Below, piece after piece: positions 25,019 to 53,413 of a DNA stretch of 64,000 nt. The first letter of the stretch is position 1. The number at the start of each line of letters is the position of its first letter. The notes under the pieces were generated by a model. It did no database searches. It worked only from the letters and a program-made list of their open reading frames with translations, and had not been told where the DNA came from. Both the position numbers and the translations under genes were made by a program. Origin of the DNA: an uncultured Peptostreptococcaceae bacterium (GTDB lineage: Bacteria > Bacillota > Clostridia > Peptostreptococcales > BM714); NCBI GenBank assembly GCA_964484935.1, contig CAZAFW010000001.1, forward strand, positions 135,654-199,653, in the 5' to 3' direction.

Positions 25019-25027
25019 CCTTTCCTT

Positions 25028-25609: not shown

Positions 25610-25621
25610 TTCAATCCCCCC

Positions 25622-26218: not shown

Positions 26219-26238
26219 TATAATTCACCTCCGGATAA

Positions 26239-26814
26239 TTACAGGCCAGAAACGATCTTGTAGGCTTCAACAGCCATGTTGACGCCTTCCGTGACCGCTT
26301 TGGACGTTATGGTAGCTCCGGAAATTGCCTGTATTTCATTTCCGGCGGCTCCCGCTTTGACAACTGTCAATTCAGATTCGGTGCTCTTTCCCGCATATTG
26401 TCCGTAAAAGTCCGGCAAAGTCGCATTCGCTCCAAGACCGGGTGTTTCCTGATGGCTTCCTACTCTCATTCCAGTGATTTTGCCATCCAACGAAACCCCT
26501 GTAATAACCTCAACGCTTCCGCCGAATCCACCCGGCAACGACTTAATGGTGTAGCCGACTACACCATCTCCTGTAAGTCCTTCATAAATCTCGACAACCA
26601 GTTCATTTTCATCTTTAACCTTGTCTAGCATATCGGCTTCAATTATTTCAAAAGACTCAGCTTCAGGCAAAACTTCCTGCCTGGACAACTGGCTTGTCAA
26701 TTCTCTTTGCCCAACAATCTTATCGATGGTGAAATCATAAACAAGAGATAGCAATCCCGCCGCAACAGCACATATTAAAAGTAGAATCAATCCTAATTTG
26801 CTGATTTCTTTCAT
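26239..26814 (-). CDS. rnfG: Rnf complex subunit G (FMN-binding)
   Basis: N-terminal TM segment plus an FMN_bind domain with the flavinylation motif SGATITS. Confidence 0.9.
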   Translation of the reverse strand: MKEISKLGLILLLICAVAAGLLSLVYDFTIDKIVGQRELTSQLSRQEVLPEAESFEIIEADMLDKVKDENELVVEIYEGLTGDGVVGYTIKSLPGGFGGSVEVITGVSLDGKITGMRVGSHQETPGLGANATLPDFYGQYAGKSTESELTVVKAGAAGNEIQAISGATITSKAVTEGVNMAVEAYKIVSGL

Positions 26815-27752
26815 TATTTTTTCACACCTCCGAACACATTGGCTTTGACATATTTGTCAATCAAAGGCGTTACAATATTCATAAATAGAATGGAGAAAGA
26901 CACGCCTCCTGGATATCCCCCAAACAGTCTGATTATTACTGTGATTAAACCGCATCCAACAGCATATATGATTTGCCCCTTTGCCGTCATCGGAGATGAT
27001 ACATAATCCGTAGCCATGAAGATGGCTCCCAAAACTAATCCTCCCGCTAGCAAATGGAACATCATGTAGTTTATATTGAATCCACCGTAAAACAATGTCA
27101 AAACAGCCACAGTACCCATGTATGCAAGAGGAATCCTCAGGCTTATAACTCCACGATAGACAAGATAAATTCCTCCTATCAAAAGTGCCAACGCCGAAAC
27201 TTCACCTATGCATCCTCCTATTTTACCAATGAAAAGATTAAAAATGGAAACACTTTCAGGCACAATCCTGCTTCCTTTTATAAGCGCAAGAGGAGTCGCC
27301 TCGGTTACTGCATCGACCGGGTACTTCCATGTGGTCATTTCAATCGGCCAAGATGCTATAAGGAATACTCTTGCCGCCAAAGCCGGGTTGATGAAATTAT
27401 GTCCCAAGCCCCCAAATGCCTGCTTGGCAATTGCTATTGCGAAAATCGAACCGACGATAGGAATCCAAAACGGAACTTCCGGAGGAAGGTTAAGTGCCAG
27501 CAAGAGTCCTGTTACGGCGGCGCTGTAATCCATTACTGTAATGGGTTGTCTTCTTATATTTTGTATTATTGCTTCAGTCGCCATGGCTGCCGCAACTGAC
27601 AGCAATACGACAATCAATGTCTGAAATCCGAAGTAATACATTCCTGCAAGCGTAGCAGGAATGAGAGCTATTACAACATCTCTCATTGTTTTATCAGTCG
27701 CTTCTTTCGACCTGATGTGCGGCGATGAAGTGACTATCAATTTTCTTTCCAT
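26814..27752 (-). CDS. rnfD: Rnf complex subunit D
   Basis: 312-aa polytopic protein of the RnfD/NqrB family (…SSPHIRS…, …FMATDYVSSP…). Confidence 0.92.
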   Translation of the reverse strand: MERKLIVTSSPHIRSKEATDKTMRDVVIALIPATLAGMYYFGFQTLIVVLLSVAAAMATEAIIQNIRRQPITVMDYSAAVTGLLLALNLPPEVPFWIPIVGSIFAIAIAKQAFGGLGHNFINPALAARVFLIASWPIEMTTWKYPVDAVTEATPLALIKGSRIVPESVSIFNLFIGKIGGCIGEVSALALLIGGIYLVYRGVISLRIPLAYMGTVAVLTLFYGGFNINYMMFHLLAGGLVLGAIFMATDYVSSPMTAKGQIIYAVGCGLITVIIRLFGGYPGGVSFSILFMNIVTPLIDKYVKANVFGGVKK

Positions 27753-27765
27753 CTTTACCCTCCTG

Positions 27766-29088
27766 TTATTTTGTTTTCCTTCGTTTTGAAAGTATTTCCC
27801 TTTTGGCCATTCTTATTGAATGGAGCAAAGGCCGTTTCGAAGGACAAATGAAAGAACACGAACCGCATTCGATGCAATCCATTGCATTATTCTTTTCCGC
27901 CATATCGAACATTCCGTTCAATGAATAGGCGCTGATTGCAAACGGTTGAATAAATGAAGGGCATATGTCTACACATTTGCCGCATCTTATGCAAGGATTT
28001 GGCTCAGGCAATCTTGCCTGTTCTTCCGTGAATACCAATACACCCGATGTAGTCTTGGTCGAGGGCAGGTCATCTGTGAATTGAGCAAAACCCATCATCG
28101 GTCCGCCAAGAATGAGTTTTCCCGGCTCGCCTTTGTATCCTCCAGCTTGAGCTATGATTTCACTGATTCTGGTTCCATTTTTTATCATAATGTTTTTAGG
28201 CTCGACAATTCCGTCGCCTGTGACAGTACAAATTCTTTCTATAAGCGGCATTCCTGTTCTGATTGCCTTCGATATCGCCGACATTGTGGCAACATTGCTT
28301 ACGACTGCTCCTGCATCCATCGGAAGGGCTCCTGAAGGAACTTCTCTTTGTGAACATGCGTAAATCAATTGTTTCTCAGATCCTTGCGGGTACTTGGTCT
28401 TTACGACCACAACTTGAATACCCGGTAAATCCTTTGCAGCCTCTTTCATCGAAAGCACAGCATCCATTTTGTTGTTCTCTATGGCTATGAAGGCTTTCTC
28501 AAGTCCCAAGACTTTCATTACTGCCCTTAACCCATAAACAACGTCTTCCGGAGTCTCAAGCATGAGACGGTGGTCCGATGTCAGATACGGCTCGCATTCC
28601 GCTCCGTTTAATATAAGTACATCAATCTTCTTGTCCGGTGGAGGCGACAATTTTACTCTTGTCGGGAAGCCCGCCCCGCCCATTCCTACTATTCCGGCTT
28701 CGTTGATTATATCGAGTATTTCTTTCGGCTCAAGCATCTCGATATCGCCCTTGGGAACAACGCTCTCATGAACTTCATTCAAGCCATCGGACTCGATTAC
28801 GATGCAAGTTCCCGTACCGTTGATAATCATCCTTTTTTCGATTTTCTTTACCGTTCCGGAAATGCTGCTATGGACTGGCGCAGATACAAATCCGCCCGCT
28901 TCACCAATTTTCTGCCCAACCTTGACTTTTTCGCCAACTTCCACAATTGCCTTGCAAGGTGCGCCGATGTGTTGCTGAAGGGGAATTACTACGATTTCAG
29001 GTTCCAAAGCTTTCTCCACCGGTAAATGTTCTGTCATTTCTTTACTGTGTGGAGGATGAATGCCTCCCCTGAATGATAAAAGATTCAT
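27766..29088 (-). CDS. rnfC: Rnf complex subunit C
   Basis: MNLLSFRGGIHPP…, a GMGGAGFPT nucleotide-binding motif, and two C-terminal 4Fe-4S motifs (CIRCGKCVDICP, CIECGSCSFICP). Confidence 0.95.
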   Translation of the reverse strand: MNLLSFRGGIHPPHSKEMTEHLPVEKALEPEIVVIPLQQHIGAPCKAIVEVGEKVKVGQKIGEAGGFVSAPVHSSISGTVKKIEKRMIINGTGTCIVIESDGLNEVHESVVPKGDIEMLEPKEILDIINEAGIVGMGGAGFPTRVKLSPPPDKKIDVLILNGAECEPYLTSDHRLMLETPEDVVYGLRAVMKVLGLEKAFIAIENNKMDAVLSMKEAAKDLPGIQVVVVKTKYPQGSEKQLIYACSQREVPSGALPMDAGAVVSNVATMSAISKAIRTGMPLIERICTVTGDGIVEPKNIMIKNGTRISEIIAQAGGYKGEPGKLILGGPMMGFAQFTDDLPSTKTTSGVLVFTEEQARLPEPNPCIRCGKCVDICPSFIQPFAISAYSLNGMFDMAEKNNAMDCIECGSCSFICPSKRPLLHSIRMAKREILSKRRKTK

Positions 29089-29282: not shown

Positions 29283-29825
29283 TCATTGTTTGATTTTTTC
29301 AAGACCTTCTTTAACATGCTCCTTTATCCAGCAAATTACATCGATATTGTTCAACGGCACATCGCCCAAAACTTCTTTGATTTCCCTTGTATCCAATATA
29401 AAACATCTTTCATCTATATAATGTCTGTATATGAAATCAACTTTGATGTCCGATATCACAACTGTAACAACGGTATCTACAATATTGCCGAGAGGAGCAC
29501 GGTCAATATGGTCATATCTGAATGAAGCTGTCAGCTCCGTTCCCTTTCCTACTTCCGATTTCATCTTGAAACTCCCATCGCAATTTTCTGCGGCAGATTT
29601 TAACATTGGTATGCCCAATCCAACTTTTCTTGTTGTCCTGCTTGTGTAGAACGGATTGGTCACTTTTTTAAGCGTTTCCTCATCCATTCCCTTTCCATCG
29701 TCTTTGATGCATATTTCAAGAATGTTCTTTTCTATTTTTTCACAAATCTCAATTTCAACCAGTTTGGAATCAGCATGGACAGAATTTTGAGCTATGTCCA
29801 ATATATGCATAGACAATTCCTTCAT
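29283..29825 (-). CDS. stand-alone HATPase_c (GHKL) ATP-binding protein, no HisKA or receiver domain
   Basis: N-box-like HILDIAQNS, G1 DDGKGM, G2 GLGIPM. A C-terminal domain of about 70 aa has no recognisable motif. Last gene of the six-gene cluster. Confidence 0.75.
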   Translation of the reverse strand: MKELSMHILDIAQNSVHADSKLVEIEICEKIEKNILEICIKDDGKGMDEETLKKVTNPFYTSRTTRKVGLGIPMLKSAAENCDGSFKMKSEVGKGTELTASFRYDHIDRAPLGNIVDTVVTVVISDIKVDFIYRHYIDERCFILDTREIKEVLGDVPLNNIDVICWIKEHVKEGLEKIKQ

Positions 29826-29839
29826 TTTAAGTCCCCCTT

Positions 29840-30553
29840 TCAGCTTTTTCTCAATGATTTGAATATGCTTCGAATATCTTTTTCATCAACTTCCAACCAA
29901 TTGTCACGCTCTGAAATGTCATGAAGATAATGGGCATCCGAATTTGAGACGAAGCAAAAATTCTTATACATAGGGTTCTTTGCTGTGAATTTTTCATGCG
30001 TCGTTATTTTTGAAAGCTCCAAGGCATCCACATTCAAGTCGGGCGGCAAGAAACCCAGATTTGCAATTAGACTAAACGCCTTTCTGTCTATGTGGGCCGG
30101 TATTGCAAGCCCATCATGCTCATGCACCAATTCAACCAATGCATAGATATTTAAACCAACCGAATGTATCAGCAGGCGTTTTTCTTCGCCTTTCAATTCG
30201 TCATTTTCATCGAATATCAATTGCCTTCCCAACAATTCCTCGGGATTGGAAATCCATTCAAAATGCTTGAAGAGTTCGTCTTGAAACGAATTGATCTTTT
30301 CAATTGTTTCGAACAGGCAAAGCACATGCACTTCCTCTTTTGTCTGAACTTCCATTCCCGGTACAACTATTATTCCATTCTTTCGGCCCAACTCCATGCA
30401 AGCCTCACAGTTTGCCGCATTGTTGTGGTCTGTTACCGCTATCGCGTCAAGCCCTTTTAATAAAGACATGTTTATTATATTGTTTGGAGTCATATCCTCA
30501 TCGCCGCACGGTGAAAGCGCCGAATGGATATGGAAGTCGTAATAAAGCTTCAT
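29840..30553 (-). CDS. PHP-domain metal-dependent phosphoesterase
   Basis: MKLYYDFHIHSALSPCGD… (HxH), …AVTDHNN…, …IPAHIDR…, …SNSDAH… are typical PHP metal ligands. Start placed at ATG 30553, forming an ATGA overlap with the preceding stop. ATG 30580 is the alternative. Confidence 0.8.
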   Translation of the reverse strand: MKLYYDFHIHSALSPCGDEDMTPNNIINMSLLKGLDAIAVTDHNNAANCEACMELGRKNGIIVVPGMEVQTKEEVHVLCLFETIEKINSFQDELFKHFEWISNPEELLGRQLIFDENDELKGEEKRLLIHSVGLNIYALVELVHEHDGLAIPAHIDRKAFSLIANLGFLPPDLNVDALELSKITTHEKFTAKNPMYKNFCFVSNSDAHYLHDISERDNWLEVDEKDIRSIFKSLRKS

Positions 30554-30885
30554 TTCATTCCCATCTCGTTTAGTTTGCATGCCAATGTAAAACTGTCAAG
30601 TTCGGAAGTGCATACAATTATATTCTCTTCATCCGCTTTCGCCAAAGTCTCTTCCTCCACTTCAATGGATTCAGGCACTATTACCATAGGCATTTCAAGA
30701 AGTGAGGCAACAGCTATTATGTTGAGGTGTGTCTGAACGGTAATCCAAATATCTCCTTTGCTTCCGTTTGCCATGACCCAACTCAAAAGATCGCAAATAT
30801 AAACTCCGTCCACGATTTTCATTGAATCCTTTTCGCCACTTAGCTGGTTCAATTTCAGTTCATCGATAATTTCATTGATGATCAT
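30550..30885 (-). CDS. DRTGG domain protein
   Basis: 111 aa; …VYICDLLSWVMANGSKGDIWITVQTHLNIIAVASLLEMPMVIV… fits the DRTGG fold pattern and is paralogous in layout to 32596..32955. It overlaps the upstream gene by 14 nt. Confidence 0.7.
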   Translation of the reverse strand: MIINEIIDELKLNQLSGEKDSMKIVDGVYICDLLSWVMANGSKGDIWITVQTHLNIIAVASLLEMPMVIVPESIEVEEETLAKADEENIIVCTSELDSFTLACKLNEMGMK

Positions 30886-32149
30886 TATTAACCTCCTGTC
30901 CTTTTCTTATTATGCAATCGTCAATTGAAGCTTCTCCCCGTACAATATCTTCCGCCAAAGCTCTGCAGCTTGGAGCTCCGCATGTTCCACAGTCTATTCC
31001 CGGCAGTTGCTTGTATATCTTCTCTATCATGTCCATCTTATTTATTGCCACACGAATGTCCGAATCCAATTTCATCACATTTTTAGGCTTAATTTCATCA
31101 ACCCAATCTTTCATTTCTTCATTGATTTTCCCTATGGCTTTTTCCCTGTCAATTGCCTCGAATTGTTTCTCCCCGATTTCTTCGGAAATGCGTCTTATTC
31201 TAGCTTTTGCGATAAATGAATTCTCCATTGTGAGTGGACCTCCAATACATCCATTTACGCATGCATATCCCTCGAAAAAATCCACATCGTTGAGCTTTCC
31301 AAGTTCCATTCCTTCCAATACTTCAATTACATTTTCTATGCCGTCAACAGCAAGATAATTTTTGGCTTTTATGCTGAAACTCTGTCCGTTTGCTTTTGCC
31401 CACCCTATTCCGACACTTGACGAGTTCTGCACTTGTTTTCGTATCTCCACATCCGGATAAATCTTCAAGATCTTGGAATAAACCGATTCTATTGAAATAG
31501 CTCTATCGACATACGACTTTCTTATTCCGACCGGGTTCTTAATGCTTGTTATCTTAGCTGGACATTCCGTTATATAAAATGTCCCAATTTCATCCATAGG
31601 TATTCCGGTTTTTTCCACAGCTTCCTTCTTGGCAAATCTAGCAGCAATTTCCATCGGTGTCTCAAGCTTGATTATCCTGTCTATAAGAGAAGGAAACCTT
31701 ATTTGTATCAGTCTTATTATTGCAGGGCAAAGAGTCGAAATAAGCGGACCTTCTTTTTCTCTGTTTTCCAATCTGTCTTTCAACGCTATTGAAAGATAGT
31801 CAGCGGCCTTGGCAACATCATAAACTTCATCGAAACCCAAATCGTAAAAAGAATTGAATATCTTGTTTATTTTCTTGCTCAAGTGAAATTGTCCATAAAT
31901 CGGAATAGAAACCAGCGCTATATTGTATTTGTATTTCTTCATGTCGGACAATTCATCCGTCAATGCTCTTTTCGCGTGATATGGGCATACTCTTATGCAC
32001 TCTCCGCAATCTATGCAGCGTTCATTTATGATTTCAGCTTTTCCATTGCGTAGGCGTATAGCCTCGGTCGGACATCTTTTCAAGCAATTAGTGCATCCAT
32101 TGCACTTTGTTATATCCAAATTGACTGAATGCCAATAATTTTCCATCAA
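30872..32149 (-). CDS. [FeFe]-hydrogenase-like protein: 2x[4Fe-4S] ferredoxin N-terminus, Fe-hydrogenase large-subunit-like core, RnfB-type C-x2-C-x4-C-x16-C C-terminus
   Basis: CNGCTNCLKRCP and CIDCGECIRVCP. Core motifs are STLCPA (compare TSCCP), ECPAK (compare MPCxxK) and ACVNGCIGGP (compare ExMxCxxGCxxGG). C-terminal CGTCGAPSCRALAEDIVRGEASIDDC. Confidence 0.75.
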   Translation of the reverse strand: MMENYWHSVNLDITKCNGCTNCLKRCPTEAIRLRNGKAEIINERCIDCGECIRVCPYHAKRALTDELSDMKKYKYNIALVSIPIYGQFHLSKKINKIFNSFYDLGFDEVYDVAKAADYLSIALKDRLENREKEGPLISTLCPAIIRLIQIRFPSLIDRIIKLETPMEIAARFAKKEAVEKTGIPMDEIGTFYITECPAKITSIKNPVGIRKSYVDRAISIESVYSKILKIYPDVEIRKQVQNSSSVGIGWAKANGQSFSIKAKNYLAVDGIENVIEVLEGMELGKLNDVDFFEGYACVNGCIGGPLTMENSFIAKARIRRISEEIGEKQFEAIDREKAIGKINEEMKDWVDEIKPKNVMKLDSDIRVAINKMDMIEKIYKQLPGIDCGTCGAPSCRALAEDIVRGEASIDDCIIRKGQEVNNDHQ

Positions 32150-32595: not shown

Positions 32596-32955
32596 TTATG
32601 CCCCTTCTATTTTGATTGCTCCAAGTCCGCTCTTATAGAGCATACCGCTTGCTTCGAACAAAGTATGTTTAACTCCCATTAAAACCATTTTCTTTTCTCG
32701 TGCCAACCTGCAAACCTCTTCGTTGGGCTTTTTCCCCCTTACGAATACAATATTGGACAAATCTAGCATTTCTGCAGTCCTTATTACTTGCAGATTGGTG
32801 AGTCCAGTCAAAAGAAGTACCTTGTCATCAACAAAAGCCAATACATCGCTCATCAAATCACATGAAAAAGCTGCTTCCACTTCCCTGTCCATGTATTCTT
32901 CTCCTGCCAATATTTCGGCATCGAGTATTTCTTTTGCTTCTCTAAGTAACATCAC
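32596..32955 (-). CDS. DRTGG domain protein
   Basis: 119 aa; …AFSCDLMSDVLAFVDDKVLLLTGLTNLQVIRTAEMLDLSNIVFVRGKKP… fits the DRTGG pattern. It overlaps the upstream gene's stop. Confidence 0.72.
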   Translation of the reverse strand: MMLLREAKEILDAEILAGEEYMDREVEAAFSCDLMSDVLAFVDDKVLLLTGLTNLQVIRTAEMLDLSNIVFVRGKKPNEEVCRLAREKKMVLMGVKHTLFEASGMLYKSGLGAIKIEGA

Positions 32956-33854
32956 AATCCCCCTTCAACACCTTCGATTCCTTCGATATAAAGTTCCGAC
33001 AAATCGTCCATGAATCCTTCATTTTCAGTTTCGGCAACTTTAAGCAAAACTTCCTCAACCGATTCATGCCAATCATCAATTCCTTCAAAAATAAATCCAG
33101 CTGAATCGAGATCATCAAGCCTCAGCCTCATACTTTCCAACTCGTCCAACTTATTGTTTGCTGTTTCTTTAAAATCTCCAAGTTTCAAATTTGAATTCAA
33201 ATATGCTACATAATCGGATTGAACCTCTCCAATCATCGAAATCATACTCTCATAATCCTTTACACATGCGAGTGCATCTTCTTCATTGTCCTCCTCATAT
33301 GAAAATTCAACTGTTTTTTCGATCCTGTATAAAAAGGCATCGTCTGCAATATCCCTTGCGGCATTTTTGAAATACTCATCAAGGGCGCTGTCTGCATAGA
33401 CAATATTCAAAACCTTGAAATTGTTCCCGTCTACAATTATTCCTGCCTCACCCTTATCGTCCAATTCACCCAAAAACTTTTCTGCATTTTCCCGCTTTGA
33501 AAATCCTCCAAGCTGATAAGCATAGAGATTCAAATCAATTTGTCCGGTCTTCATGCCAGGCTTTATATTTTCATTTTCAATGCCGGTTTCCACCTGATCT
33601 TCAATTTTTTCTTCCCTAGTTTCATCTTCTTGAATTTCGTCAGGCTTTATTTCCAACATATCCGATATTTCCCTGCTTTGCTCTTCATCGGATCCCGAAG
33701 CTTCAGCCGATATGGGTTTTTCATTTCCTGAAAGCATGAATTTCACTCCGTAAAAACCCACCAATGCCGAAATTACGCATAAAAACAAAATTGAAAGAAT
33801 TATTCTTCCGCTTCTGTTTTTTCTGCTTCTTTTTCTTTTATATCTCTGTGCCAT
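32952..33854 (-). CDS. membrane-anchored protein with acidic linker and SPOR-like domain
   Basis: N-terminal basic stretch plus a TM segment (RIILSILFLCVISALVGFYGV), then an E/D-rich linker. …YAYQLGGFSKRENAEKFLGELDDKGEAGIIVDGNNFKVL… resembles a SPOR repeat. The C-terminal 140 aa are unassigned. Confidence 0.5.
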   Translation of the reverse strand: MAQRYKRKRSRKNRSGRIILSILFLCVISALVGFYGVKFMLSGNEKPISAEASGSDEEQSREISDMLEIKPDEIQEDETREEKIEDQVETGIENENIKPGMKTGQIDLNLYAYQLGGFSKRENAEKFLGELDDKGEAGIIVDGNNFKVLNIVYADSALDEYFKNAARDIADDAFLYRIEKTVEFSYEEDNEEDALACVKDYESMISMIGEVQSDYVAYLNSNLKLGDFKETANNKLDELESMRLRLDDLDSAGFIFEGIDDWHESVEEVLLKVAETENEGFMDDLSELYIEGIEGVEGGL

Positions 33855-33883: not shown

Positions 33884-35371
33884 TCATATTTGTTTGTCTG
33901 TATTGTCCAGGATTTTTTTAGTTCTTATTTTTCTTTCCGCCATTTCAACCGGTGATTCAATATAGTCCCTCACCTGCTTGTAGTTTGCCGTCCTTAATAT
34001 TCTGTTTTCTTCAAGTGATACGAATTTTGTCATCACTCCAGACCCGAAGGCAATTACCGTTTGAAGGTCGTTCATCATCTGTATGTTGTAAAGACATTCC
34101 TTACCGGGTTTTGCATATCCTATGTTCTCCATGTTTCCAAGCATGTACTTTTGCCTGTACATATAGTATGGCTCCATACCCAGTGAAACTGCTCCGTTTT
34201 CAGCAATGTTAATCATTTGGGCAACAGCATCCTCGCCAGGAAGCATTTGCACTAAGGAGCTCTTCCTCATTTCGGCATTCTTCTTCAAAGCCAGAGTGTG
34301 TACCGTCAAATTGTCCGGCCTTATTATTGATACATTTTTCATTGTGGATTCCATTTCAGGGATATCTTCTCCCGGAAGCCCGACTATCAAGTCCATATTT
34401 ACTGAATTGAATCCGTACGGCTTGACCATTTCCCATGCTTTGTGCACATCCTCGGATGTATGGCCCCTCCTTACCGTTTCCAAAGTCTTGTTGTTGAATG
34501 TTTGCGGATTTATGCTTATTCTGTCTACACCTGAATTTTTCAACACGGACAGTTTCTTTTCATCTATTGTATCAGGCCTTCCGGCTTCTACTGTAAATTC
34601 CTTCAATCCGCTTAAATCAAGTGTCCCGTTCAAAACGTCCAAGACTTCCCTTAGCATGGGGGCTGACAGTTCCGTGGGTGTGCCTCCACCCATGTAGACC
34701 GTTTCGATTTCATGGTGCGCAATTTCTTTTGCGTAGCGTCTTATTTCCACCGCCAAAGCCTTCACGTACTTTTCTTTCATGCCGTCTGCCGCATTCACCT
34801 TTGTCGGGAATGAACAATAGAGGCATTTGCTGGGACAAAAGGGTATCCCTATATAAACTGAAATTTTTTTTGGATCCGGAGGATAAATAAAATCGTGCTC
34901 CAGACCTGCAACCCTCATGAGGAGATTTATTTTTTCTTTTGAAATCAAATATTCGCTTTCCAATTTAAATCTTATCTCTTCCTGATTCATTCCGCTTTGA
35001 ATCATTTCATGGACAAGCTTGGACGGCTTTATTCCCGTCAGGGTCCCCCACGGAAGAATATTCGCGCTTTCATCCCCGAGAATAGTCTTTACCATCAAAT
35101 GCTTCAACCTTCTGCGCACTTGCCTTTTGTTTTCCCGCGCGTCCCCTGAAGGCTTTTTGACTGTTTCGCTTTTTTCAGAAATTGCGTTTTTTTCGTTCTT
35201 CCATACTACTCTCAAATTGAAGGCATCTTCTTCCCTTTTGTGGATTATTGCCAAAAAGGGACCGCATGCATCCAGGTCCCTCGTAGCTTCCAAATCTTCA
35301 GTTTTAAAGATTGCCTTTGCCAAAGCCTCTATATCGTAACGATAAGTCGAATCCGTCATGTATATCTTCAT
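33884..35371 (-). CDS. hemZ: HemN-like radical SAM protein, HemZ subfamily (coproporphyrinogen dehydrogenase-like)
   Basis: Radical SAM motif CPSKCLYCSF, …GGGTPT…, and the HemN_C region. A long N-terminal extension is typical of HemZ. Confidence 0.8.
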   Translation of the reverse strand: MKIYMTDSTYRYDIEALAKAIFKTEDLEATRDLDACGPFLAIIHKREEDAFNLRVVWKNEKNAISEKSETVKKPSGDARENKRQVRRRLKHLMVKTILGDESANILPWGTLTGIKPSKLVHEMIQSGMNQEEIRFKLESEYLISKEKINLLMRVAGLEHDFIYPPDPKKISVYIGIPFCPSKCLYCSFPTKVNAADGMKEKYVKALAVEIRRYAKEIAHHEIETVYMGGGTPTELSAPMLREVLDVLNGTLDLSGLKEFTVEAGRPDTIDEKKLSVLKNSGVDRISINPQTFNNKTLETVRRGHTSEDVHKAWEMVKPYGFNSVNMDLIVGLPGEDIPEMESTMKNVSIIRPDNLTVHTLALKKNAEMRKSSLVQMLPGEDAVAQMINIAENGAVSLGMEPYYMYRQKYMLGNMENIGYAKPGKECLYNIQMMNDLQTVIAFGSGVMTKFVSLEENRILRTANYKQVRDYIESPVEMAERKIRTKKILDNTDKQI

Positions 35372-42220: not shown

Positions 42221-42244
42221 AAATGGCGGCATATGCCGCCATTT
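42221..42244 (-). terminator. hairpin terminator after secF
   Basis: AAATGGCGGC-ATAT-GCCGCCATTT is a perfect palindrome. The minus-strand tail TTTGAATTT is only moderately U-rich. Confidence 0.55.
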
Positions 42245-42264
42245 GATCCGTTCGATTTTGTCCG

Positions 42265-43152
42265 TTATGCGGCTTTGTAGCTGTGTTTCTTGCTTTCGTG
42301 GTTTTTCCAGATTGCCCAAACCGGGCTCGCTATGAAAATAGAAGAGTATGTTCCTGTAAGTACTCCAGCCAAAAGCGGCAGGGCAAATTCCTTTATAGAC
42401 TCCACTCCCAGCACATAAAGGCTTCCTATTACAAGCAAGGTTGTAAGCGATGTGTTCAAAGACCTTCTCAGTGTTTGCCTTATGCTTATGTCCGCTACTT
42501 CAAAATGGCTCTTTTTATTCATATACTTTATGTTTTCCCTAAGCCTGTCGAAAACTACAATTGTATCGTTTATTGAATATCCCACGATTGTAAGAATTGC
42601 CGCTATCACAGAACTGTTGACAGGTATTCTGAAAATCGAATATATTGCCATTACTATAAGCACATCGTGCATAAGGGCAATTATTGCGGAAATTCCGAAT
42701 TTGTATTCAAAACGGAAAGTCACATACATAAGCATTCCGATTGACGCAAGCAATATGGAAATCAACGCCTTTTCCTTTATCTCATCCCCAATTGCAGGCC
42801 CGAACTGTTCCGTTTGTCCGAATGCAGAATCATCGATTCCGAATGCCTCTTTTGCCGAATCAAATATTTCTATCCTTTCAGCATTCGAAAGATTTACTTT
42901 TGTCTTTATTATAACTTCATGATTTTCAGATCCCGCGTGTATTATGTCCGCGTCGAGTTCGTACGGGGCAAGAACCTCCTGTATTTCCTCGACATTGAAC
43001 TCTCTTCCCATATCGAATTGCATCATTGTTCCGCCTGTGAAATCGATTCCGAAATTCAACCCGGAAGCTATGGCCACAATCAATCCGATAATGATGATTG
43101 CCGAAGAAATCCCAAACCATATCTTGTAATTTTCGCAAATTTTAAATTTCAT
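42265..43152 (-). CDS. secF: protein translocase subunit SecF
   Basis: …GIDFTGGTMMQF… followed by an RND-like 6-TM bundle. Directly follows secD. Confidence 0.94.
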   Translation of the reverse strand: MKFKICENYKIWFGISSAIIIIGLIVAIASGLNFGIDFTGGTMMQFDMGREFNVEEIQEVLAPYELDADIIHAGSENHEVIIKTKVNLSNAERIEIFDSAKEAFGIDDSAFGQTEQFGPAIGDEIKEKALISILLASIGMLMYVTFRFEYKFGISAIIALMHDVLIVMAIYSIFRIPVNSSVIAAILTIVGYSINDTIVVFDRLRENIKYMNKKSHFEVADISIRQTLRRSLNTSLTTLLVIGSLYVLGVESIKEFALPLLAGVLTGTYSSIFIASPVWAIWKNHESKKHSYKAA

Positions 43153-43166
43153 CTTTGCTCCCCTCC

Positions 43167-44420
43167 CTATGCGCCGTACATCTTGACATTTTTAGTCAAA
43201 TTCATGCCCACAAAAATCCTGAGTAGCATTTTTGTAACTACAACAGCCGTGAACATGCTTGCTACAATACCTATCATAAGTGTTATTGCAAATCCTTTAA
43301 TCGGACCAAGCCCGAAATAGTAAAGCACAATTGCGGCTATAAGTGTAGTCACGTTGGCATCGACAATAGTCCTCAATGCCTTTGTGAATCCCGAGTCAAC
43401 AGACGCCCTTAGCGTCTTGCCATTTCTGATTTCCTCTTTTATGCGTTCAAATATTATTACATTCGCATCCACTGCCATTCCTATGGAAAGAACCATTCCC
43501 GCCACTCCGGGAAGCGTCAGTGTGGCATTCATAAATACAAGGGTGTAAAGAACAATCACAATATAGAGCATAAGGGCTATGCCCGCCACAAGTCCGGGTA
43601 TCCTGTAGTAGCCAAGCATGAATATAAGCACCAGCAATAGGCCTATGAGTCCGGCCTTGGCGCTTGTATTGAGTGAATTTATTCCAAGTGTCGCCCCAAT
43701 CGCCTTGGTCTGAACTTCCGTCAAATCAACCGGCAAAGCTCCTCCTCTTATCAGTGCGGCAAGATTCGAAGCTTCGTCTACAGTAAAATCTCCTACTATT
43801 ATTGCAGTTCCTCCAGATATTTCACTGTCAACCCTGGGAGCTGAAATTATTTCGTCATCGAGCACTATTGGCATCAAATTGTTTGGAGACGCCAAACTTG
43901 CCACTTCCTTGGTTCCAAGCCTGAAAGCCTCAGTACCGTCTCCGTTGAATTCAAGCGCTACGGCAGGCTTGTCCGTCTTCGGATCAAACGTCAATTCCGC
44001 ATTCTTGACTTGCTCTCCTGTCAGAATGACAGTCCCATCAACCATTACAAACTGCAGCTGAGCGGTCTTGCCTATTGCCTCTATAGCGTCCTGCGCGTCT
44101 CTGACTCCCGGAAGTTCGACTCTTATCCTTTTTGTCCCCTCTCGGACTATGTTCGGTTCCGTCAATCCCATTGCGTCAACTCGCCTTCTTATAACTTCCT
44201 GGGTTTGATCCATTGTCCTTGCCAAAGCTTCCCCCGTTTCATCGGTTTCCGCTTCCAAGACCACATATGCTCCACCCTCGATGTCAAGTCCTAGTTTCAT
44301 TGAATCGCTGATGGAACCAATCTTCAAATTCCCCGCATCGATGCCGTTTAAAGCTGTAAAAACTGCTGCAATTACAACCAAGACTACGACTATGAAAAGT
44401 GTGATGTTCTTTGTTTTCAT
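43167..44420 (-). CDS. secD: protein translocase subunit SecD
   Basis: …LGLDIEGGAYVVLEA…, a periplasmic P1 domain, and a C-terminal 6-TM bundle (…AVDANVIIFERIKEE…). Confidence 0.94.
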   Translation of the reverse strand: MKTKNITLFIVVVLVVIAAVFTALNGIDAGNLKIGSISDSMKLGLDIEGGAYVVLEAETDETGEALARTMDQTQEVIRRRVDAMGLTEPNIVREGTKRIRVELPGVRDAQDAIEAIGKTAQLQFVMVDGTVILTGEQVKNAELTFDPKTDKPAVALEFNGDGTEAFRLGTKEVASLASPNNLMPIVLDDEIISAPRVDSEISGGTAIIVGDFTVDEASNLAALIRGGALPVDLTEVQTKAIGATLGINSLNTSAKAGLIGLLLVLIFMLGYYRIPGLVAGIALMLYIVIVLYTLVFMNATLTLPGVAGMVLSIGMAVDANVIIFERIKEEIRNGKTLRASVDSGFTKALRTIVDANVTTLIAAIVLYYFGLGPIKGFAITLMIGIVASMFTAVVVTKMLLRIFVGMNLTKNVKMYGA

Positions 44421-44441: not shown

Positions 44442-44942
44442 TTATTTATAATCCGACGCCAATTCTACGTAATTTTTAGCTGAAACTTCAAAATAATCCA
44501 TTTCCTTTTTTGTCAGCGGTCGCACTACCTTGCCCGGCGTCCCCATGACCATCGATCCGCTGGGAATTCTCCGGCCCGGAGGCACAAGGCTCCCGGCTCC
44601 TATTATAACATCATCCTCTATGACTGCGCCATTTAAAATAATTGCGCCCATTCCAACCAAGACTCTGTCACCTATTGTGCATGCGTGGACTATGGCGCCA
44701 TGACCCACAGTCACATTCTCTCCCAATATGCATGGAAAGTCGCGCGAGATGTGCAATGTGCAATTGTCCTGTATGTTGGTTCCCTTTCCGATTTCCACAT
44801 AATTCTCATCTCCTCGGACAACGGTTCCGAACCATACATTTACATCTTCCTTGAGTATCACATTACCAACGATGTCTGCTGTTTCGGATATATAGCATGA
44901 GGAATGGATTTCCGGCATTATTCCTTTGTAGCTCTTTATCAT
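44442..44942 (-). CDS. gamma-carbonic-anhydrase-like / hexapeptide-repeat (LbH) protein
   Basis: Left-handed beta-helix repeats (…GNVILKEDVNVWFGTVVRGD…IGKGTNIQDNCTLH…VGHGAIVH…) with the YrdA/PaaY-like His pattern. Confidence 0.85.
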   Translation of the reverse strand: MIKSYKGIMPEIHSSCYISETADIVGNVILKEDVNVWFGTVVRGDENYVEIGKGTNIQDNCTLHISRDFPCILGENVTVGHGAIVHACTIGDRVLVGMGAIILNGAVIEDDVIIGAGSLVPPGRRIPSGSMVMGTPGKVVRPLTKKEMDYFEVSAKNYVELASDYK

Positions 44943-44952
44943 GTCTGCACCC

Positions 44953-46335
44953 CTATATGAGTTTTCTTTGTTCTATACCCTTTTCATTCAACGCCGCCTT
45001 TACGTATATTGCGCATTCGACACGCTTTTTTTCCATTTCGCAGCCCAATTCATAGGGCTCGAAGATATTTCCGTTTGAATAGTAGGCATTTGCATGGCAG
45101 CCCCCGCCGCAATAGAATCTTGCCCAGCAGTTCCTGCATGCCTCCTTTTTATAGACATGTGCATTCTTGAAATCCAGCGGTTTCTTCAAATCTTCATAAG
45201 AATCATCAAGCGTACCCATTTCCATCGACTTTTCCCCTACGAACTGATGACATGGATAAAGTTCTCCTTCGGGTGTTACTGCAAGATACTCTATTCCCGC
45301 ACCGCATCCGGAAAGACGCTTGTATGCGCACGGTCCCTGGTTTAAATCCACTTCAAAGTGATAGTAGTTTATCGGTTCGCCTTCCTCATGGCGCTTTATT
45401 ATTTCATCGGCCAATGCTTCATATTGTTCGAAAATTACCGGAAGATGCTCTTCCTTGAGCACATACGGCTCGGTGGGTTTTGTCACAACCGGCTCAAGAG
45501 ACAGGCTGTCGAAGCCGCTGTCGGCAAGAAAACGGACATCCTCCGAAAAATTCAAATTGTAAGATGTGAACGTTCCCCTAGCAAAATACAAGCGATTTTC
45601 ACGCATTTTCACGAATTTCTTTAATTTATCGTAGATGTCGTCAAAAGACCCCTTCCCGCTTGCATAATATCTCAACCTGTCATGATTCTCTTTCTTTCCG
45701 TCTATGCTCAGGACCACATTGTCCATGTTCTTGTCTAAAAATTCCATTACCTCGTCTGTCATTAGAACACCGTTTGTAGTCAGTGTAAAACGAAAGTGCT
45801 TCCCGGTCTCTTTTTCCCTTTTTCTTCCGTAATGGACAAGTTCTTTTACGACATCAAAATTCATCAAGGGCTCGCCTCCAAAAAAATCGACTTCCAGATT
45901 CCTTCTGTTTCCCGAATTTTCTATAAGATAGTCCAAAGCCTTTATACCTGTTTCCAGGGACATGAGGCTTCTCTTTCCGTTGAAGTCCCCCTGGGCGGCA
46001 AAACAATACTCGCATCTGAGATTACAGTCGTGGGCGACATGAAGACACATAGCTTTAACTACCGGTTTTGCGGCAAGCAGCGGATTTTCACCCAATATGT
46101 CGTCTGCAAAAAGTTCTTTTCCTTCTATAAGGGTATCAATTTCAACCCTTGCCTCTTCAACCGTTTTCTTGCCATGTAATTCCATGCACTTGCTGAAAGC
46201 CTCATTTTCTTTGTCCAGTCCATTTTCCGAATATGAATCAAGAAGATCAAATGCCGCATCATCCACAACATGAACCGCTCCACTGTTTATATCTAAAACA
46301 ATGTTAATTCCATTTTGTCTATACTTGTGAATCAT
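44953..46335 (-). CDS. scfB: radical SAM/SPASM thioether-forming maturase of the SCIFF peptide
   Basis: CNLRCEYC radical SAM motif, plus a C-terminal SPASM Cys cluster (…CAYKRLSGCGAG…YPCHQF…CRNCWARFYCGGGCHANAY). It lies immediately downstream of the SCIFF precursor. Start set at ATG 46335 behind GGGAGGAAAG. Confidence 0.9.
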   Translation of the reverse strand: MIHKYRQNGINIVLDINSGAVHVVDDAAFDLLDSYSENGLDKENEAFSKCMELHGKKTVEEARVEIDTLIEGKELFADDILGENPLLAAKPVVKAMCLHVAHDCNLRCEYCFAAQGDFNGKRSLMSLETGIKALDYLIENSGNRRNLEVDFFGGEPLMNFDVVKELVHYGRKREKETGKHFRFTLTTNGVLMTDEVMEFLDKNMDNVVLSIDGKKENHDRLRYYASGKGSFDDIYDKLKKFVKMRENRLYFARGTFTSYNLNFSEDVRFLADSGFDSLSLEPVVTKPTEPYVLKEEHLPVIFEQYEALADEIIKRHEEGEPINYYHFEVDLNQGPCAYKRLSGCGAGIEYLAVTPEGELYPCHQFVGEKSMEMGTLDDSYEDLKKPLDFKNAHVYKKEACRNCWARFYCGGGCHANAYYSNGNIFEPYELGCEMEKKRVECAIYVKAALNEKGIEQRKLI

Positions 46336-46365
46336 AGTCTTTCCTCCCACTAAATACGCAAAGAG

Positions 46366-46392
46366 AAAAAGCAGCTTTCAAGCTGCTTTTTT
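46366..46392 (-). terminator. hairpin with U-tract between SCIFF precursor and maturase (candidate attenuating terminator)
   Basis: Minus strand: AAAAAAGCAGCT-TGAA-AGCTGCTTTTTCTCTTT. A 6-bp GC-rich stem extended by A:U pairs, starting 3 nt after the scfA stop. Confidence 0.6.
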
Positions 46393-46394
46393 GA

Positions 46395-46535
46395 TTACTT
46401 TGTGTTTTCACAAACTTGGTTTCCAACAGTGCATGAGGTTTTGCATGCCGACTGGCAAGATGTTTGACATTCTCCGCAGCCTTTGTTTTTAATTTCCTTC
46501 AATTTGCCCCTGCTGAGGGTTTTTACATGCTTCAT
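46395..46535 (-). CDS. scfA: six-cysteine ranthipeptide precursor SCIFF (46 aa); absent from the ORF track
   Basis: Own translation of the minus strand: MKHVKTLSRGKLKEIKNKGCGECQTSCQSACKTSCTVGNQVCENTK*. ATG at 46535 is preceded by AAAGGA. The N-terminus and the six-Cys spacing match the SCIFF family as I remember it (MKHIKTL…GGCGECQTSCQSACKTSC). Confidence 0.9.
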   Translation of the reverse strand: MKHVKTLSRGKLKEIKNKGCGECQTSCQSACKTSCTVGNQVCENTK

Positions 46536-46588
46536 CCGTTCATCCGTCCTTTCACAAACAATCCATTTTCAATGCCTTGATATTTTGA

Positions 46589-46858
46589 TTATTCCTCGAC
46601 TGTTCCTATGGCCCATTTGCTTAGCTGGAGCTTGAGCTTGTCCGCTCCGATTTCCAATGTAAGCACTTCATCGTTGATTTTTACAATTGTTCCATTGATT
46701 CCTCCAATGGTCACAACTTTGTCGCCGACTTTCAGGTTTTCACGCATTTTCTGAATTGCCTTGTTCTTCTTTTGTTGCGGTCTTATCATAAGAAAATACA
46801 ATATTCCAATGAACAACAACGGAAACAAAAGCTGAATAGCAGATGAATTATTCATCAA
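46589..46858 (-). CDS. yajC: preprotein translocase subunit YajC
   Basis: 89 aa; a single TM segment, then …MIRPQQKKNKAIQKMRENLKVGDKVVTIGGI.G… is the YajC signature. Confidence 0.92.
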   Translation of the reverse strand: MMNNSSAIQLLFPLLFIGILYFLMIRPQQKKNKAIQKMRENLKVGDKVVTIGGINGTIVKINDEVLTLEIGADKLKLQLSKWAIGTVEE

Positions 46859-46888: not shown

Positions 46889-49062
<2,174 letters not shown>

Positions 49063-53104: not shown

Positions 53105-53197
53105 TCATCCAAAAAGTGATACCAGTCCACCGAAAGCCGATATAACCATTACTACAGCAATCGCAATTGCAATAATTTTAGCCGTTCCCCTGTTCAT
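53105..53197 (-). CDS. 30-aa single-TM micro-protein (DUF4044-like), tentative
   Basis: MNRGTAKIIAIAIAVVMVISAFGGLVSLFG* behind a strong AAGGGGTGA SD at 5-nt spacing. The SD overlaps the stop of the preceding small ORF. The longer tracked ORF (to 53329) has no SD. Confidence 0.45.
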   Translation of the reverse strand: MNRGTAKIIAIAIAVVMVISAFGGLVSLFG

Positions 53198-53213
53198 TTT
53201 TTCACCCCTTAAT

Positions 53214-53354
53214 TTATTCAAAATCATCATCAAATATTGTTGTGCTTTCGTCGTTTTCGGTCTCTTCCGGCTTTTTGCCTTCTCTGAACTTTCTGAAGTC
53301 CCAAAAAACCAAGAATATGCCTGCAGCAACTAAAAATGTCAAGACAGGATCCAT
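53214..53354 (-). CDS. 46-aa micro-protein: N-terminal TM helix plus acidic tail, tentative
   Basis: MDPVLTFLVAAGIFLVFWDFRKFREGKKPEETENDESTTIFDDDFE*. AAGGGGA lies 12 nt upstream of the ATG. An extended -10 (TGTTATAAT, plus-strand coordinates 53385..53393) lies just upstream on the minus strand. Confidence 0.4.
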   Translation of the reverse strand: MDPVLTFLVAAGIFLVFWDFRKFREGKKPEETENDESTTIFDDDFE

Positions 53355-53413
53355 AAGCGTCAAGTGTCCCCTTTTTTTTTTAACATTATAACATAAATTT
53401 TTCAAAAAAACTA

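What the first reader, a model, noticed from the sequence alone, without database searches (positions are those of the whole stretch)
44953..46535. Unannotated SCIFF ranthipeptide precursor with its radical SAM maturase, embedded in the tgt-yajC-secDF housekeeping block
A 141-nt minus-strand ORF falls below the track's size cut-off. It encodes MKHVKTLSRGKLKEIKNKGCGECQTSCQSACKTSCTVGNQVCENTK, with six Cys in the last 27 residues in the SCIFF pattern. The gene 59 nt downstream encodes a 460-aa radical SAM/SPASM enzyme (CNLRCEYC plus a C-terminal CxxCx5Cx3C-type cluster region), the thioether (sactionine/ranthionine)-forming maturase. The family has been described bioinformatically and the cross-linking chemistry shown in vitro. 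To my knowledge the biological role of the mature peptide is still unknown. No dedicated exporter, protease or immunity gene accompanies it here. Instead the pair is wedged between yajC and a gamma-CA-like gene followed by secD/secF, with no terminator after yajC. That layout argues for a housekeeping or physiological function rather than an antibiotic one.
Basis: partly seen in the sequence, partly recalled or inferred. Interest (0 to 1): 0.7.

Follow-up and report, generated by a model that had tools for sequence, protein, structure and literature searches.

The report
Known SCIFF peptide and its maturase
This is an ordinary copy of the SCIFF peptide gene and its radical SAM maturase, a pair found in nearly all Clostridia and already named in GenBank; its place inside the yajC-secDF operon is an old gene order shared by several clostridial orders.

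Summary
A 46-aa minus-strand ORF (46395-46535) scores above the curated cut-offs of TIGR03973 and PF13165. The 460-aa gene 59 nt downstream (44953-46335) scores 659.9 bits on TIGR03974 (cut-off 425). It is 53% identical over its full length to CteB (PDB 5WGG), with every cluster cysteine conserved. It is not an anaerobic sulfatase maturase.

It is not new. The identical peptide is in GenBank as 'six-cysteine ranthipeptide SCIFF' (HKL10702.1), and an identical ScfB is in NCBI, JGI and ENA. Only the JGI and ENA gene calls for these contigs skip the small ORF. Reviews already argue that ubiquity in Clostridia speaks against an antibiotic role. A 2020 knockout study proposed a quorum-sensing role.

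What I add:
- The order queA-tgt-yajC-(TIGR04086)-scfA-scfB-(hexapeptide)-secD-secF recurs in Peptostreptococcales, Tissierellales and Ruminiclostridium.
- CteAB of A. thermocellus and a Lachnospiraceae MAG also sit just upstream of secDF.
- About 70 of 80 sampled species genomes, mostly gut MAGs labelled Oscillospiraceae, Lachnospiraceae or simply Clostridia, lack this context.
- A terminator-like hairpin follows scfA in 75 of 83 distinct loci.
- The window's lineage has lost the TIGR04086 membrane gene.

Interest is low.

The parts
46395..46535 (-). scfA, the SCIFF ranthipeptide precursor (46 aa). The leader is about residues 1-19. The core is GCGECQTSCQSACKTSCTVGNQVCENTK.
   Evidence: ORF. 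TIGR03973 76.7 bits (cut-off 50) and PF13165 82.8 bits. The identical sequence is GenBank HKL10702.1, 'six-cysteine ranthipeptide SCIFF'.
46358..46392 (-). Terminator-like hairpin in the scfA-scfB spacer: A-run, GCAGC stem, UUGAAA loop, GCUGC stem, then UUUUUCUCUUU. It is probably a partial terminator or attenuator.
   Evidence: Sequence. The scan flags the same stem at 46365-46392. The spacer folds with an MFE of -17.4 kcal/mol. A strong hairpin after scfA is present in 75 of 83 distinct related loci (z < -2, median z -4.3).
44953..46335 (-). scfB, the radical SAM/SPASM thioether-forming SCIFF maturase (460 aa).
   Evidence: TIGR03974 659.9 bits (cut-off 425). Radical_SAM, Fer4_12 and SPASM Pfam domains. 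Matches CteB (5WGG/5WHY) at E 3.7e-158 over residues 1-447. 53% identity, with all radical SAM and SPASM-region cysteines conserved.
44442..44942 (-). Hexapeptide-repeat, gamma-carbonic-anhydrase-like gene. It starts 10 nt after the scfB stop.
   Evidence: NF050158 190 bits (below its cut-off of 250) and Hexapep Pfam. The same gene sits in the same position in C. aceticum, Caldisalinibacter, R. josui, Fusibacter and Paeniclostridium loci.
43167..44420 (-). secD, 21 nt after the hexapeptide gene.
   Evidence: SecD_1st, SecDF_P1_head and SecD_SecF_C Pfam families on the identical public gene.
42265..43152 (-). secF, 14 nt after secD. A GC-rich stem-loop (GGCGGCAU/AUGCCGCC, about 42223-42246) follows and probably ends the transcription unit.
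   Evidence: Pfam families. Stem-loop read directly from the sequence. Gaps.
46589..46858 (-). yajC, 53 nt upstream of scfA. No terminator-like site lies between them.
   Evidence: TIGR00739 83.1 bits and PF02699 99.8 bits. The scan finds no site in the spacer.
46889..49062 (-). queA (48040-49062) and tgt (46889-48025), the upstream members of the co-directional, tightly spaced block.
   Evidence: Queuosine_synth and TGT Pfam families on the identical public genes. Gaps of 14 and 33 nt.

Best explanation
This is a canonical scfA/scfB (SCIFF ranthipeptide) locus of an uncultured Peptostreptococcales-like clostridium.

**Mechanism, by homology to CteB/CteA and Tte1186/Tte1186a (inferred here)**
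- The N-terminal leader-binding (RRE) region of ScfB binds the ScfA leader (MKHVKTL...).
- The CX3CX2C [4Fe-4S] cluster cleaves SAM to a 5'-deoxyadenosyl radical.
- The radical abstracts a hydrogen atom from a Thr side chain of the core.
- A core Cys, held at an auxiliary SPASM cluster, then forms a non-alpha-carbon thioether.
- The expected link is Cys31 to Thr33 or Thr36 in window numbering. These correspond to Cys32-Thr34 or Cys32-Thr37 of CteA.

**Transcription (inferred from spacing and hairpins)**
- The pair lies inside the ancestral yajC-secD-secF operon and is probably transcribed with it.
- Gaps are 53, 59, 10, 21 and 14 nt, all on one strand. The only hairpins are one after scfA and one after secF.
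- The hairpin after scfA most likely acts as a partial terminator. It would give excess precursor mRNA while letting some transcripts run on into scfB, the hexapeptide gene and secDF.

**Biological role**
- The role of the product is not settled.
- The near-invariant core, the single copy per genome, and the absence of exporter, protease, immunity or receptor genes all fit a conserved physiological role. They fit a bacteriocin poorly.
For: - Both family HMMs score above their curated cut-offs and better than all sibling models. Pfam gives SCIFF, Radical_SAM and SPASM.
- ScfB aligns over its full length to CteB at E 3.7e-158. Identity is 53%. C104/C108/C111 and the nine C-terminal cysteines (336, 344, 362, 400, 403, 409, 413, 432, 441) are conserved.
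- The identical peptide and an identical enzyme are already in public databases; NCBI names the peptide SCIFF and names homologues of the enzyme SCIFF maturase.
- The core CGECQTSCQSACKTSC-[T/G]-V-[A/G]-NQ-x-CE is invariant or nearly so in 88 loci from many clostridial families.
- scfA lies directly upstream of scfB in every locus where the contig allows it to be seen.
- A hairpin follows scfA in 75 of 83 distinct loci. Median MFE is -20.8 kcal/mol, against -10.0 for control segments inside scfB.
- There is no room for a promoter between the hairpin and the scfB Shine-Dalgarno sequence.
- The same gene order occurs in C. aceticum, Caldisalinibacter, R. josui and Fusibacter. Variants that keep secDF occur in A. 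thermocellus (CteAB itself) and a Lachnospiraceae MAG.
- The thioether chemistry and the Cys32-Thr34/37 assignments come from the literature as summarised in PMC8326336 and PMC8172795.
Against: - Nothing argues against family membership.
- The mechanistic details are not shown here. No expression, modification or transcript data exist for this uncultured organism.
- The acceptor residue is disputed in the literature (Thr37 in vitro, Thr34 in E. coli co-expression).
- The window hairpin on its own is only modestly better than shuffles (z -1.6). Its significance rests on recurrence across loci.
- The promoter scan is no better than shuffles (20 sites found, 17.1 expected), so co-transcription with yajC is inferred only from spacing.
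Confidence: 0.95

Rival explanations
1. The peptide is a secreted quorum-sensing or signalling molecule, as proposed for C. beijerinckii and C. ljungdahlii.
For: Chen et al. 2020, as summarised in PMC8102284 and PMC8326336, disrupted the precursor and radical SAM genes. Sporulation genes went down and the agr locus went up. A 2026 preprint extends the idea to a whole ranthipeptide cluster group.
Against: - The core peptide is essentially invariant across 88 loci from different clostridial orders. It therefore cannot carry species-specific information.
- The window and related loci show no exporter, leader protease, histidine kinase or response regulator next to the pair.
- ScfA has no signal peptide or double-glycine leader (read from the sequence).
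- Knockout transcriptome changes are equally expected from loss of an intracellular factor, or from polar effects on downstream genes where scfAB precedes secDF.
Confidence: 0.25
2. The pair is a bacteriocin or antimicrobial RiPP cluster, which is how genome-mining pipelines often file it.
For: antiSMASH-type rules flag TIGR03973 as a ranthipeptide or sactipeptide biosynthetic cluster, and several papers count these among bacteriocins.
Against: - No immunity, ABC exporter or protease gene is present.
- The core is invariant, and the preprint reports at most one ranthipeptide cluster per species (for the core).
- The literature notes the lack of characterised antimicrobial activity and argues that ubiquity speaks against such a role.
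- The locus sits inside a housekeeping operon.
Confidence: 0.04
3. ScfB is really an orphan or differently targeted SPASM enzyme (anaerobic sulfatase maturase, QhpD-like, PapB-like or 'not_ScfB'), and the small ORF is incidental.
For: Sibling models give partial scores: not_ScfB 556.6, PapB 289.2, QhpD-type 264.2 and anSME 105.9 bits.
Against: - All of these scores are below their curated cut-offs (855, 340, 453 and 349). TIGR03974 is well above its own.
- The small ORF itself passes two independent HMMs.
- The small ORF is conserved immediately upstream of scfB in 88 of 90 loci. The two exceptions are cut by contig ends.
Confidence: 0.01

Closest known systems
CteA/CteB (thermocellin) of Acetivibrio (Clostridium) thermocellus; PDB 5WGG/5WHY
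   Same: - Same families (TIGR03973 and TIGR03974).
- ScfB is 53% identical over its full length, with all cluster cysteines conserved.
- The core is identical apart from three residues near its C-terminal end: G38 (Ala in CteA), V41 and N44.
- Both Thr acceptor candidates are present.
- CteAB also lies just upstream of secD-secF.
   Different: - The upstream neighbours in A. thermocellus are lspA and rluD, not tgt and yajC.
- An HD-domain gene replaces the hexapeptide gene between scfB and secD.
- The window leader is one residue shorter (KNKGCGEC against KKGGCGEC).
- No strong hairpin lies in the first 60 nt after cteA.
Tte1186a/Tte1186 of Caldanaerobacter subterraneus
   Same: This was the first SCIFF pair characterised in vitro. 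It forms one thioether from the fourth Cys to a Thr (literature). The window peptide has the equivalent Cys31 and Thr36.
SCIFF loci of C. aceticum, Caldisalinibacter kiritimatiensis and Ruminiclostridium josui
   Same: Gene order is queA-tgt-yajC-...-scfA-scfB-hexapeptide-secD-secF.
   Different: They carry a TIGR04086/DUF3792 membrane-protein gene between yajC and scfA. The window has no homologue anywhere in its 64 kb.
'TSCGV'-type SCIFF loci of gut Clostridia MAGs (labelled Oscillospiraceae, Lachnospiraceae, Christensenella and others)
   Same: Same scfA-hairpin-scfB unit and the same invariant core up to the fifth Cys.
   Different: - Gly replaces Thr36 in 70 of 88 loci.
- The leader starts MKRI....
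- In 57 of 80 sampled loci the upstream gene is an Orn/Lys/Arg-decarboxylase-family gene.
- No yajC, tgt or secDF lies within 6 kb.
PapA/PapB (freyrasin) and QhpD
   Same: Radical SAM/SPASM enzymes that form non-alpha-carbon thioethers (literature). They give partial HMM similarity.
   Different: Scores are below their cut-offs (PapB 289 of 340; QhpD-type 264 of 453). PapA uses repeated Cys-X3-Asp motifs, which are absent here.

Membership tests
SCIFF precursor (TIGR03973 / PF13165) | Profile HMM score above the curated cut-off | tested here: met
   TIGR03973 76.7 bits against 50. PF13165 82.8 bits against 27.
SCIFF precursor (TIGR03973 / PF13165) | Peptide of about 45 aa with six Cys in a conserved C-terminal core | tested here: met
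   46 aa. Cys at residues 20, 23, 27, 31, 35 and 42. The core matches the invariant columns of 88 related loci.
SCIFF precursor (TIGR03973 / PF13165) | Encoded immediately upstream of, and co-directional with, a TIGR03974 radical SAM gene | tested here: met
   59-nt spacer on the same strand.
SCIFF precursor (TIGR03973 / PF13165) | Found in Clostridia | tested here: met
   The closest genomes are Peptostreptococcaceae and Clostridia MAGs, with 87-92% ScfB identity. GenBank names the identical peptide in such MAGs.
SCIFF precursor (TIGR03973 / PF13165) | The mature product carries a Cys-to-Thr non-alpha-carbon thioether | not testable with these tools
   Needs mass spectrometry or NMR. The candidate residues Cys31, Thr33 and Thr36 are present.
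SCIFF maturase ScfB (TIGR03974) | HMM score above the cut-off and higher than all sibling models | tested here: met
   659.9 bits against 425. not_ScfB 556.6 (<855), PapB 289 (<340), QhpD-type 264 (<453), anSME 106 (<349).
SCIFF maturase ScfB (TIGR03974) | CX3CX2C radical SAM motif plus SPASM auxiliary-cluster cysteines | tested here: met
   C104/C108/C111 and Cys 336, 344, 362, 400, 403, 409, 413, 432 and 441 each align with a Cys of CteB.
SCIFF maturase ScfB (TIGR03974) | N-terminal leader-binding (RRE) region | tested here: met
   The alignment to CteB starts at residue 1. The N-terminal block MIHK..G.NIV.D.NSGAVHVVDD..FD.LD is strongly conserved. Binding itself was not tested.
SCIFF maturase ScfB (TIGR03974) | SAM-dependent thioether formation on ScfA | not testable with these tools
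   Needs a biochemical assay.
Anaerobic sulfatase-maturing enzyme (TIGR03942) | HMM score above the cut-off | tested here: not met
   105.9 bits against 349.45.
Bacteriocin-type RiPP cluster | Dedicated exporter, leader protease or immunity gene in the cluster | tested here: not met
   The neighbours are yajC, a hexapeptide gene, secD and secF. No such genes appear in the window or in the named related loci.
Peptide quorum-sensing system | Strain- or species-variable signal with an adjacent exporter, processing enzyme or receptor | tested here: not met
   The core is invariant across 88 loci. No kinase, regulator or exporter is adjacent. Distant receptors cannot be excluded.

The most novel reading that the evidence does not exclude
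The SCIFF peptide may be an intracellular or membrane-associated factor functionally tied to the YajC-SecDF accessory translocon. Alternatively the hairpin after scfA may be a regulatory element that meters secDF expression.

**For**
- The order yajC-(TIGR04086 membrane protein)-scfA-scfB-(hexapeptide or HD gene)-secD-secF recurs in at least four clostridial lineages, including the biochemically characterised CteAB locus.
- scfAB stays with secDF in two lineages where yajC and tgt have moved away.
- No paper in the searchable library mentions both SCIFF and secD.

**Against**
- Most sampled loci of the 'TSCGV' type have no secDF nearby.
- Paeniclostridium and Paraclostridium keep yajC-scfAB but have lost secDF from the locus.
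- Retention of an ancestral gene order is therefore a sufficient explanation.
Probability: 0.1. Interest if true: 0.6.

Novelty: already known. Interest (0 to 1): 0.18.

Why it matters
As a finding it matters little. The family was defined in 2011, has a crystal structure, and is named automatically by NCBI and antiSMASH. This exact peptide is already in GenBank.

Three modest points are worth keeping:
1. Metagenome gene callers (JGI and ENA here) still skip the 46-codon scfA, so SCIFF loci in such data look like orphan radical SAM genes.
2. The comparative data bear on two open questions about SCIFF. Thr33 (Thr34 of CteA) is invariant in 88 loci. Thr36 (Thr37 of CteA) is Gly in 70 of them. 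So a Cys-Thr37 link cannot be the universal modification. The invariant core also fits a species-specific pheromone poorly.
3. scfAB precedes secDF in several model organisms, including A. thermocellus. Knockouts of scfAB could therefore have polar effects on secDF, which should be controlled for when phenotypes are interpreted.

Tried and rejected
- **Rfam:** a gathering-threshold scan of the whole window found no known RNA family. The scfA hairpin is therefore not a described riboswitch or leader.
- **Promoters:** the scan found 20 sites against 17.1 expected from shuffles, so it gives no usable promoter evidence. The 9/12 match inside the 3' end of tgt (46933-46905) is not evidence.
- **Window hairpin alone:** z is -1.6 against shuffles, which is not convincing by itself. 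I rely on its recurrence across loci.
- **PDB search with ScfA:** the only hit was the ferredoxin motif of epoxyqueuosine reductase QueG (5D6S; E 0.0098, domain i-E 0.22). I rejected it as Cys-pattern similarity. That queA and tgt lie nearby is best read as coincidence.
- **Primary papers:** I tried to read Haft & Basu 2011 (PMC3133131), Hudson et al. 2019 (PMC6622460) and Bruender et al. 2016 (PMC4829460). None is held. What they say is taken second-hand from reviews. I could not check whether Haft & Basu already noted the yajC/secDF/TIGR04086 neighbourhood.
- **Species-genome scan:** the loci were retrieved through peptide patterns taken from the window's ScfB, so the 8-of-80 figure is not an unbiased frequency of the secDF context. 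I ran no further search on it.
- **Lineages not examined:** Clostridium sensu stricto (C. beijerinckii, C. ljungdahlii) and Thermoanaerobacterales contexts could not be examined, because no protein ids for them appeared among the top 120 hits of the two homology searches.
- **Structure prediction:** not run, because a 53%-identical crystal structure exists.
Full report
**1. The observation**

The minus-strand ORF 46395-46535 encodes exactly the quoted 46-aa peptide. Its six Cys are spaced CxxCx3Cx3Cx3Cx6C. After a 59-nt spacer, an ATG at 46335 opens a 460-aa gene that ends at 44953. A GGGAGGAAAG ribosome-binding site precedes that ATG. The CNLRCEYC motif gives C104, C108 and C111. The CxxCx5Cx3C motif gives C400, C403, C409 and C413.

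**2. Family tests**

- ScfA scores TIGR03973 76.7 bits (cut-off 50) and PF13165 82.8 bits (cut-off 27).
- ScfB scores TIGR03974 659.9 bits (cut-off 425).

All sibling models fall below their cut-offs: the 'not_ScfB' exception model (556.6 < 855), PapB (289 < 340), QhpD-type (264 < 453) and anaerobic sulfatase maturase (106 < 349).

ScfB aligns over its full length with the crystallised SCIFF maturase CteB (5WGG/5WHY, E 3.7e-158). Identity is 53%. The three radical SAM cysteines and nine C-terminal cysteines are all conserved.

**3. Already in the databases**

- An identical ScfB (P0001) is held by NCBI, JGI and ENA. NCBI names many homologues 'thioether cross-link-forming SCIFF peptide maturase'.
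- The identical 46-aa peptide is GenBank HKL10702.1, 'six-cysteine ranthipeptide SCIFF [Clostridia bacterium]'. A near-identical cluster mate comes from a Peptostreptococcaceae MAG.
- The window matches JGI metagenome 3300007712, contig Ga0102929_1000001.
- In the gene calls held for that contig and for two related contigs, nothing is called between yajC and scfB. 'Unannotated' is therefore true of those calls only.
- The closest species genomes are Peptostreptococcaceae and Clostridia MAGs with 87-92% ScfB identity.

**4. Literature**

Reviews state the following.
- Tte1186 and CteB each install one thioether from Cys32. The acceptor is Thr37 in vitro and Thr34 (a C-gamma link) on co-expression in E. 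coli.
- The class was renamed ranthipeptides.

Chen et al. 2020 disrupted the genes in C. beijerinckii and C. ljungdahlii and proposed a quorum-sensing role. A 2026 survey found ranthipeptide core peptides in 32,512 metagenome samples, calls them ubiquitous to Clostridia, and notes that they lack characterised antimicrobial activity.

**5. Local anatomy**

All genes from ruvC to relA lie on the minus strand. Around the pair the gaps are:

| Junction | Gap (nt) |
|---|---|
| queA-tgt | 14 |
| tgt-yajC | 33 |
| yajC-scfA | 53 |
| scfA-scfB | 59 |
| scfB-hexapeptide gene | 10 |
| hexapeptide gene-secD | 21 |
| secD-secF | 14 |
| secF-next gene | 142 |

- The yajC-scfA spacer has no terminator-like site.
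- The scfA-scfB spacer holds an A-run/GCAGC-UUGAAA-GCUGC/U-run hairpin. About 30 nt follow before the scfB start, too little for a promoter.
- A GC-rich stem-loop follows secF.
- The simplest reading, which is inferred, is one transcription unit: at least yajC-scfA-scfB-hexapeptide-secD-secF, with a partial terminator after scfA.
- From general knowledge, yajC-secD-secF is a classical operon in E. coli, and stem-loops between precursor and modification genes are common in RiPP operons.

**6. Comparative test of the neighbourhood**

*(a) Species genomes.* I retrieved 80 species-genome loci through ScfB. They were compared by tblastn and phmmer with the window's neighbours and with SecDF, YajC and TIGR04086 sequences from other loci.
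- Eight loci share the layout: L001-L006, L068 and L075, from Peptostreptococcaceae-type MAGs, Paeniclostridium, Paraclostridium and Fusibacter.
- Six of the eight include secDF.
- Paeniclostridium and Paraclostridium have yajC-TIGR04086-scfA-scfB-hexapeptide, followed by an ABC1 kinase and recJ, with no secDF.
- The other loci (about 70) show no tgt, yajC or secDF within 6 kb.
- In 57 of the 80, an Orn/Lys/Arg-decarboxylase-family gene lies just upstream of scfA.

*(b) Gene-call contexts for chosen ScfB homologues.*
- C. aceticum, Caldisalinibacter (Tissierellales) and Ruminiclostridium josui have (spoIID-)queA-tgt-yajC-DUF3792-SCIFF-ScfB-hexapeptide-secD-secF.
- A. thermocellus (CteAB itself) and a biogas MAG have lspA-rluD-SCIFF-ScfB-HD-secD-secF.
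- A Lachnospiraceae MAG has pyrBI-DUF3792-SCIFF-ScfB-secDF(fused)-recJ-relA.
- A cluster of 2,153 member sequences has SCIFF-ScfB-secDF(fused).
- DUF3792 is the TIGR04086 membrane-protein family. It has no homologue in the window.

*Conclusion.* The layout is old and shared by several orders, and the window's lineage has lost TIGR04086. Breaks occur on both sides of scfAB: yajC is lost in Acetivibrio and the Lachnospiraceae MAG, and secDF is lost in Paeniclostridium and in all 'TSCGV'-type loci. Retained ancestral synteny is therefore a sufficient explanation. The sample was retrieved by sequence patterns and is not an unbiased census.

**7. Peptide comparison**

In 88 loci the core CGECQTSCQSACKTSC is invariant apart from two single substitutions, and NQ-x-CE is invariant. 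Position 36 is Thr in 18 loci and Gly in 70. The 18 Thr loci are exactly those with a yajC, TIGR04086 or secDF context. Thr33 is invariant.

Two inferences follow.
- A Cys-Thr37-type link cannot be the universal SCIFF modification, whereas a link to the invariant Thr (Thr34 of CteA) could be.
- An invariant core fits a species-specific pheromone or a diversifying bacteriocin poorly.

**8. The hairpin is a conserved feature**

I folded the first 60 nt after the scfA stop in 83 distinct loci.
- 75 fold with z < -2 against dinucleotide shuffles. The median z is -4.3.
- Median MFE is -20.8 kcal/mol, against -10.0 for control segments inside scfB.
- The stem sequences differ between lineages.
- A. 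thermocellus and R. josui lack a strong hairpin within those 60 nt.

**9. Verdict**

This is a correct identification of a well-known, automatically annotated system, so novelty is 'already known'. The only reading with some novelty is a functional link between SCIFF and YajC-SecDF, or regulation of secDF through the scfA attenuator. I give it about 0.1 probability. No paper in the searchable library holds both 'SCIFF' and 'secD', but the founding paper could not be read.

The rest of the window is ordinary housekeeping, including leuS, obg, RNase G, rodA, mreBCD, rnf, relA, recJ and ruvABC.

Noticed in passing
window 46536-46588 (yajC-scfA spacer); compare L084:4280-4663, L085:4293-4679, L086:3792-4160, L089:4236-4640, L005:5260-5643: A TIGR04086/DUF3792 small membrane-protein gene sits directly upstream of scfA in C. 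aceticum, Caldisalinibacter, R. josui, Paeniclostridium and a Lachnospiraceae MAG. It is missing from the window, its closest MAG relatives and Fusibacter. tblastn finds no copy anywhere in the 64 kb.
   Followed up: partly
ScfA residue 36 (window about 46428-46430) and 88 related loci: There are two SCIFF subtypes. 'MKH(I/V)KT...TSCTV' occurs in 18 loci, all with a yajC, TIGR04086 or secDF context. 'MKRI...TSCGV' occurs in 70 loci, most with an Orn/Lys/Arg-decarboxylase-family gene upstream. The Thr reported as acceptor in vitro (Thr37 of CteA) is Gly in the second type. Thr34 of CteA is invariant.
   Followed up: partly
L081:9748-10000, L082:5276-5528, L083:1543-1795: The JGI and ENA gene calls for the contigs that carry this locus leave scfA uncalled. 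In those data sets ScfB looks like an orphan radical SAM gene. NCBI-annotated genomes do call the 46-aa gene.
   Followed up: yes
window about 42223-42246 (-): A GC-rich stem-loop (AAAUGGCGGCAU/AUGCCGCCAUUU) lies about 20 nt after the secF stop. It is probably the terminator of the yajC...secF unit. The consensus scan did not flag it because its T tract is short.
   Followed up: no
window 46395-46535 against PDB 5D6S: ScfA's only PDB sequence hit is the 4Fe-4S ferredoxin motif of epoxyqueuosine reductase QueG (E 0.0098). The queuosine genes queA and tgt lie just upstream. I judged this to be Cys-pattern similarity and coincidence.
   Followed up: partly
window 29283-32149 (-): Directly upstream of the rnfCDGEAB operon (24026-29088) lies a trio: an Fe-only-hydrogenase-like protein with Fer4 and FeS domains (425 aa), a PHP-domain protein (246 aa) and a small HATPase_c protein (180 aa). 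It may be a redox-sensing module.
   Followed up: no
window 32952-33854 (-): A 300-aa ORF with no Pfam match at E <= 1e-5 lies between the hydrogenase-like gene and a 495-aa radical SAM gene (33884-35371) that has no SPASM domain.
   Followed up: no
window 17090-20005 (-): The PBP2-type penicillin-binding protein next to rodA and mreBCD is unusually long (971 aa). Both the PBP_dimer and transpeptidase domains are stretched by large insertions relative to their Pfam models.
   Followed up: no
window 53105-53405 (-): Small overlapping ORFs upstream of ruvC, called as 46-aa and 40-aa genes in the JGI annotation, have no family assignment. One has a hydrophobic C-terminal segment.
   Followed up: no
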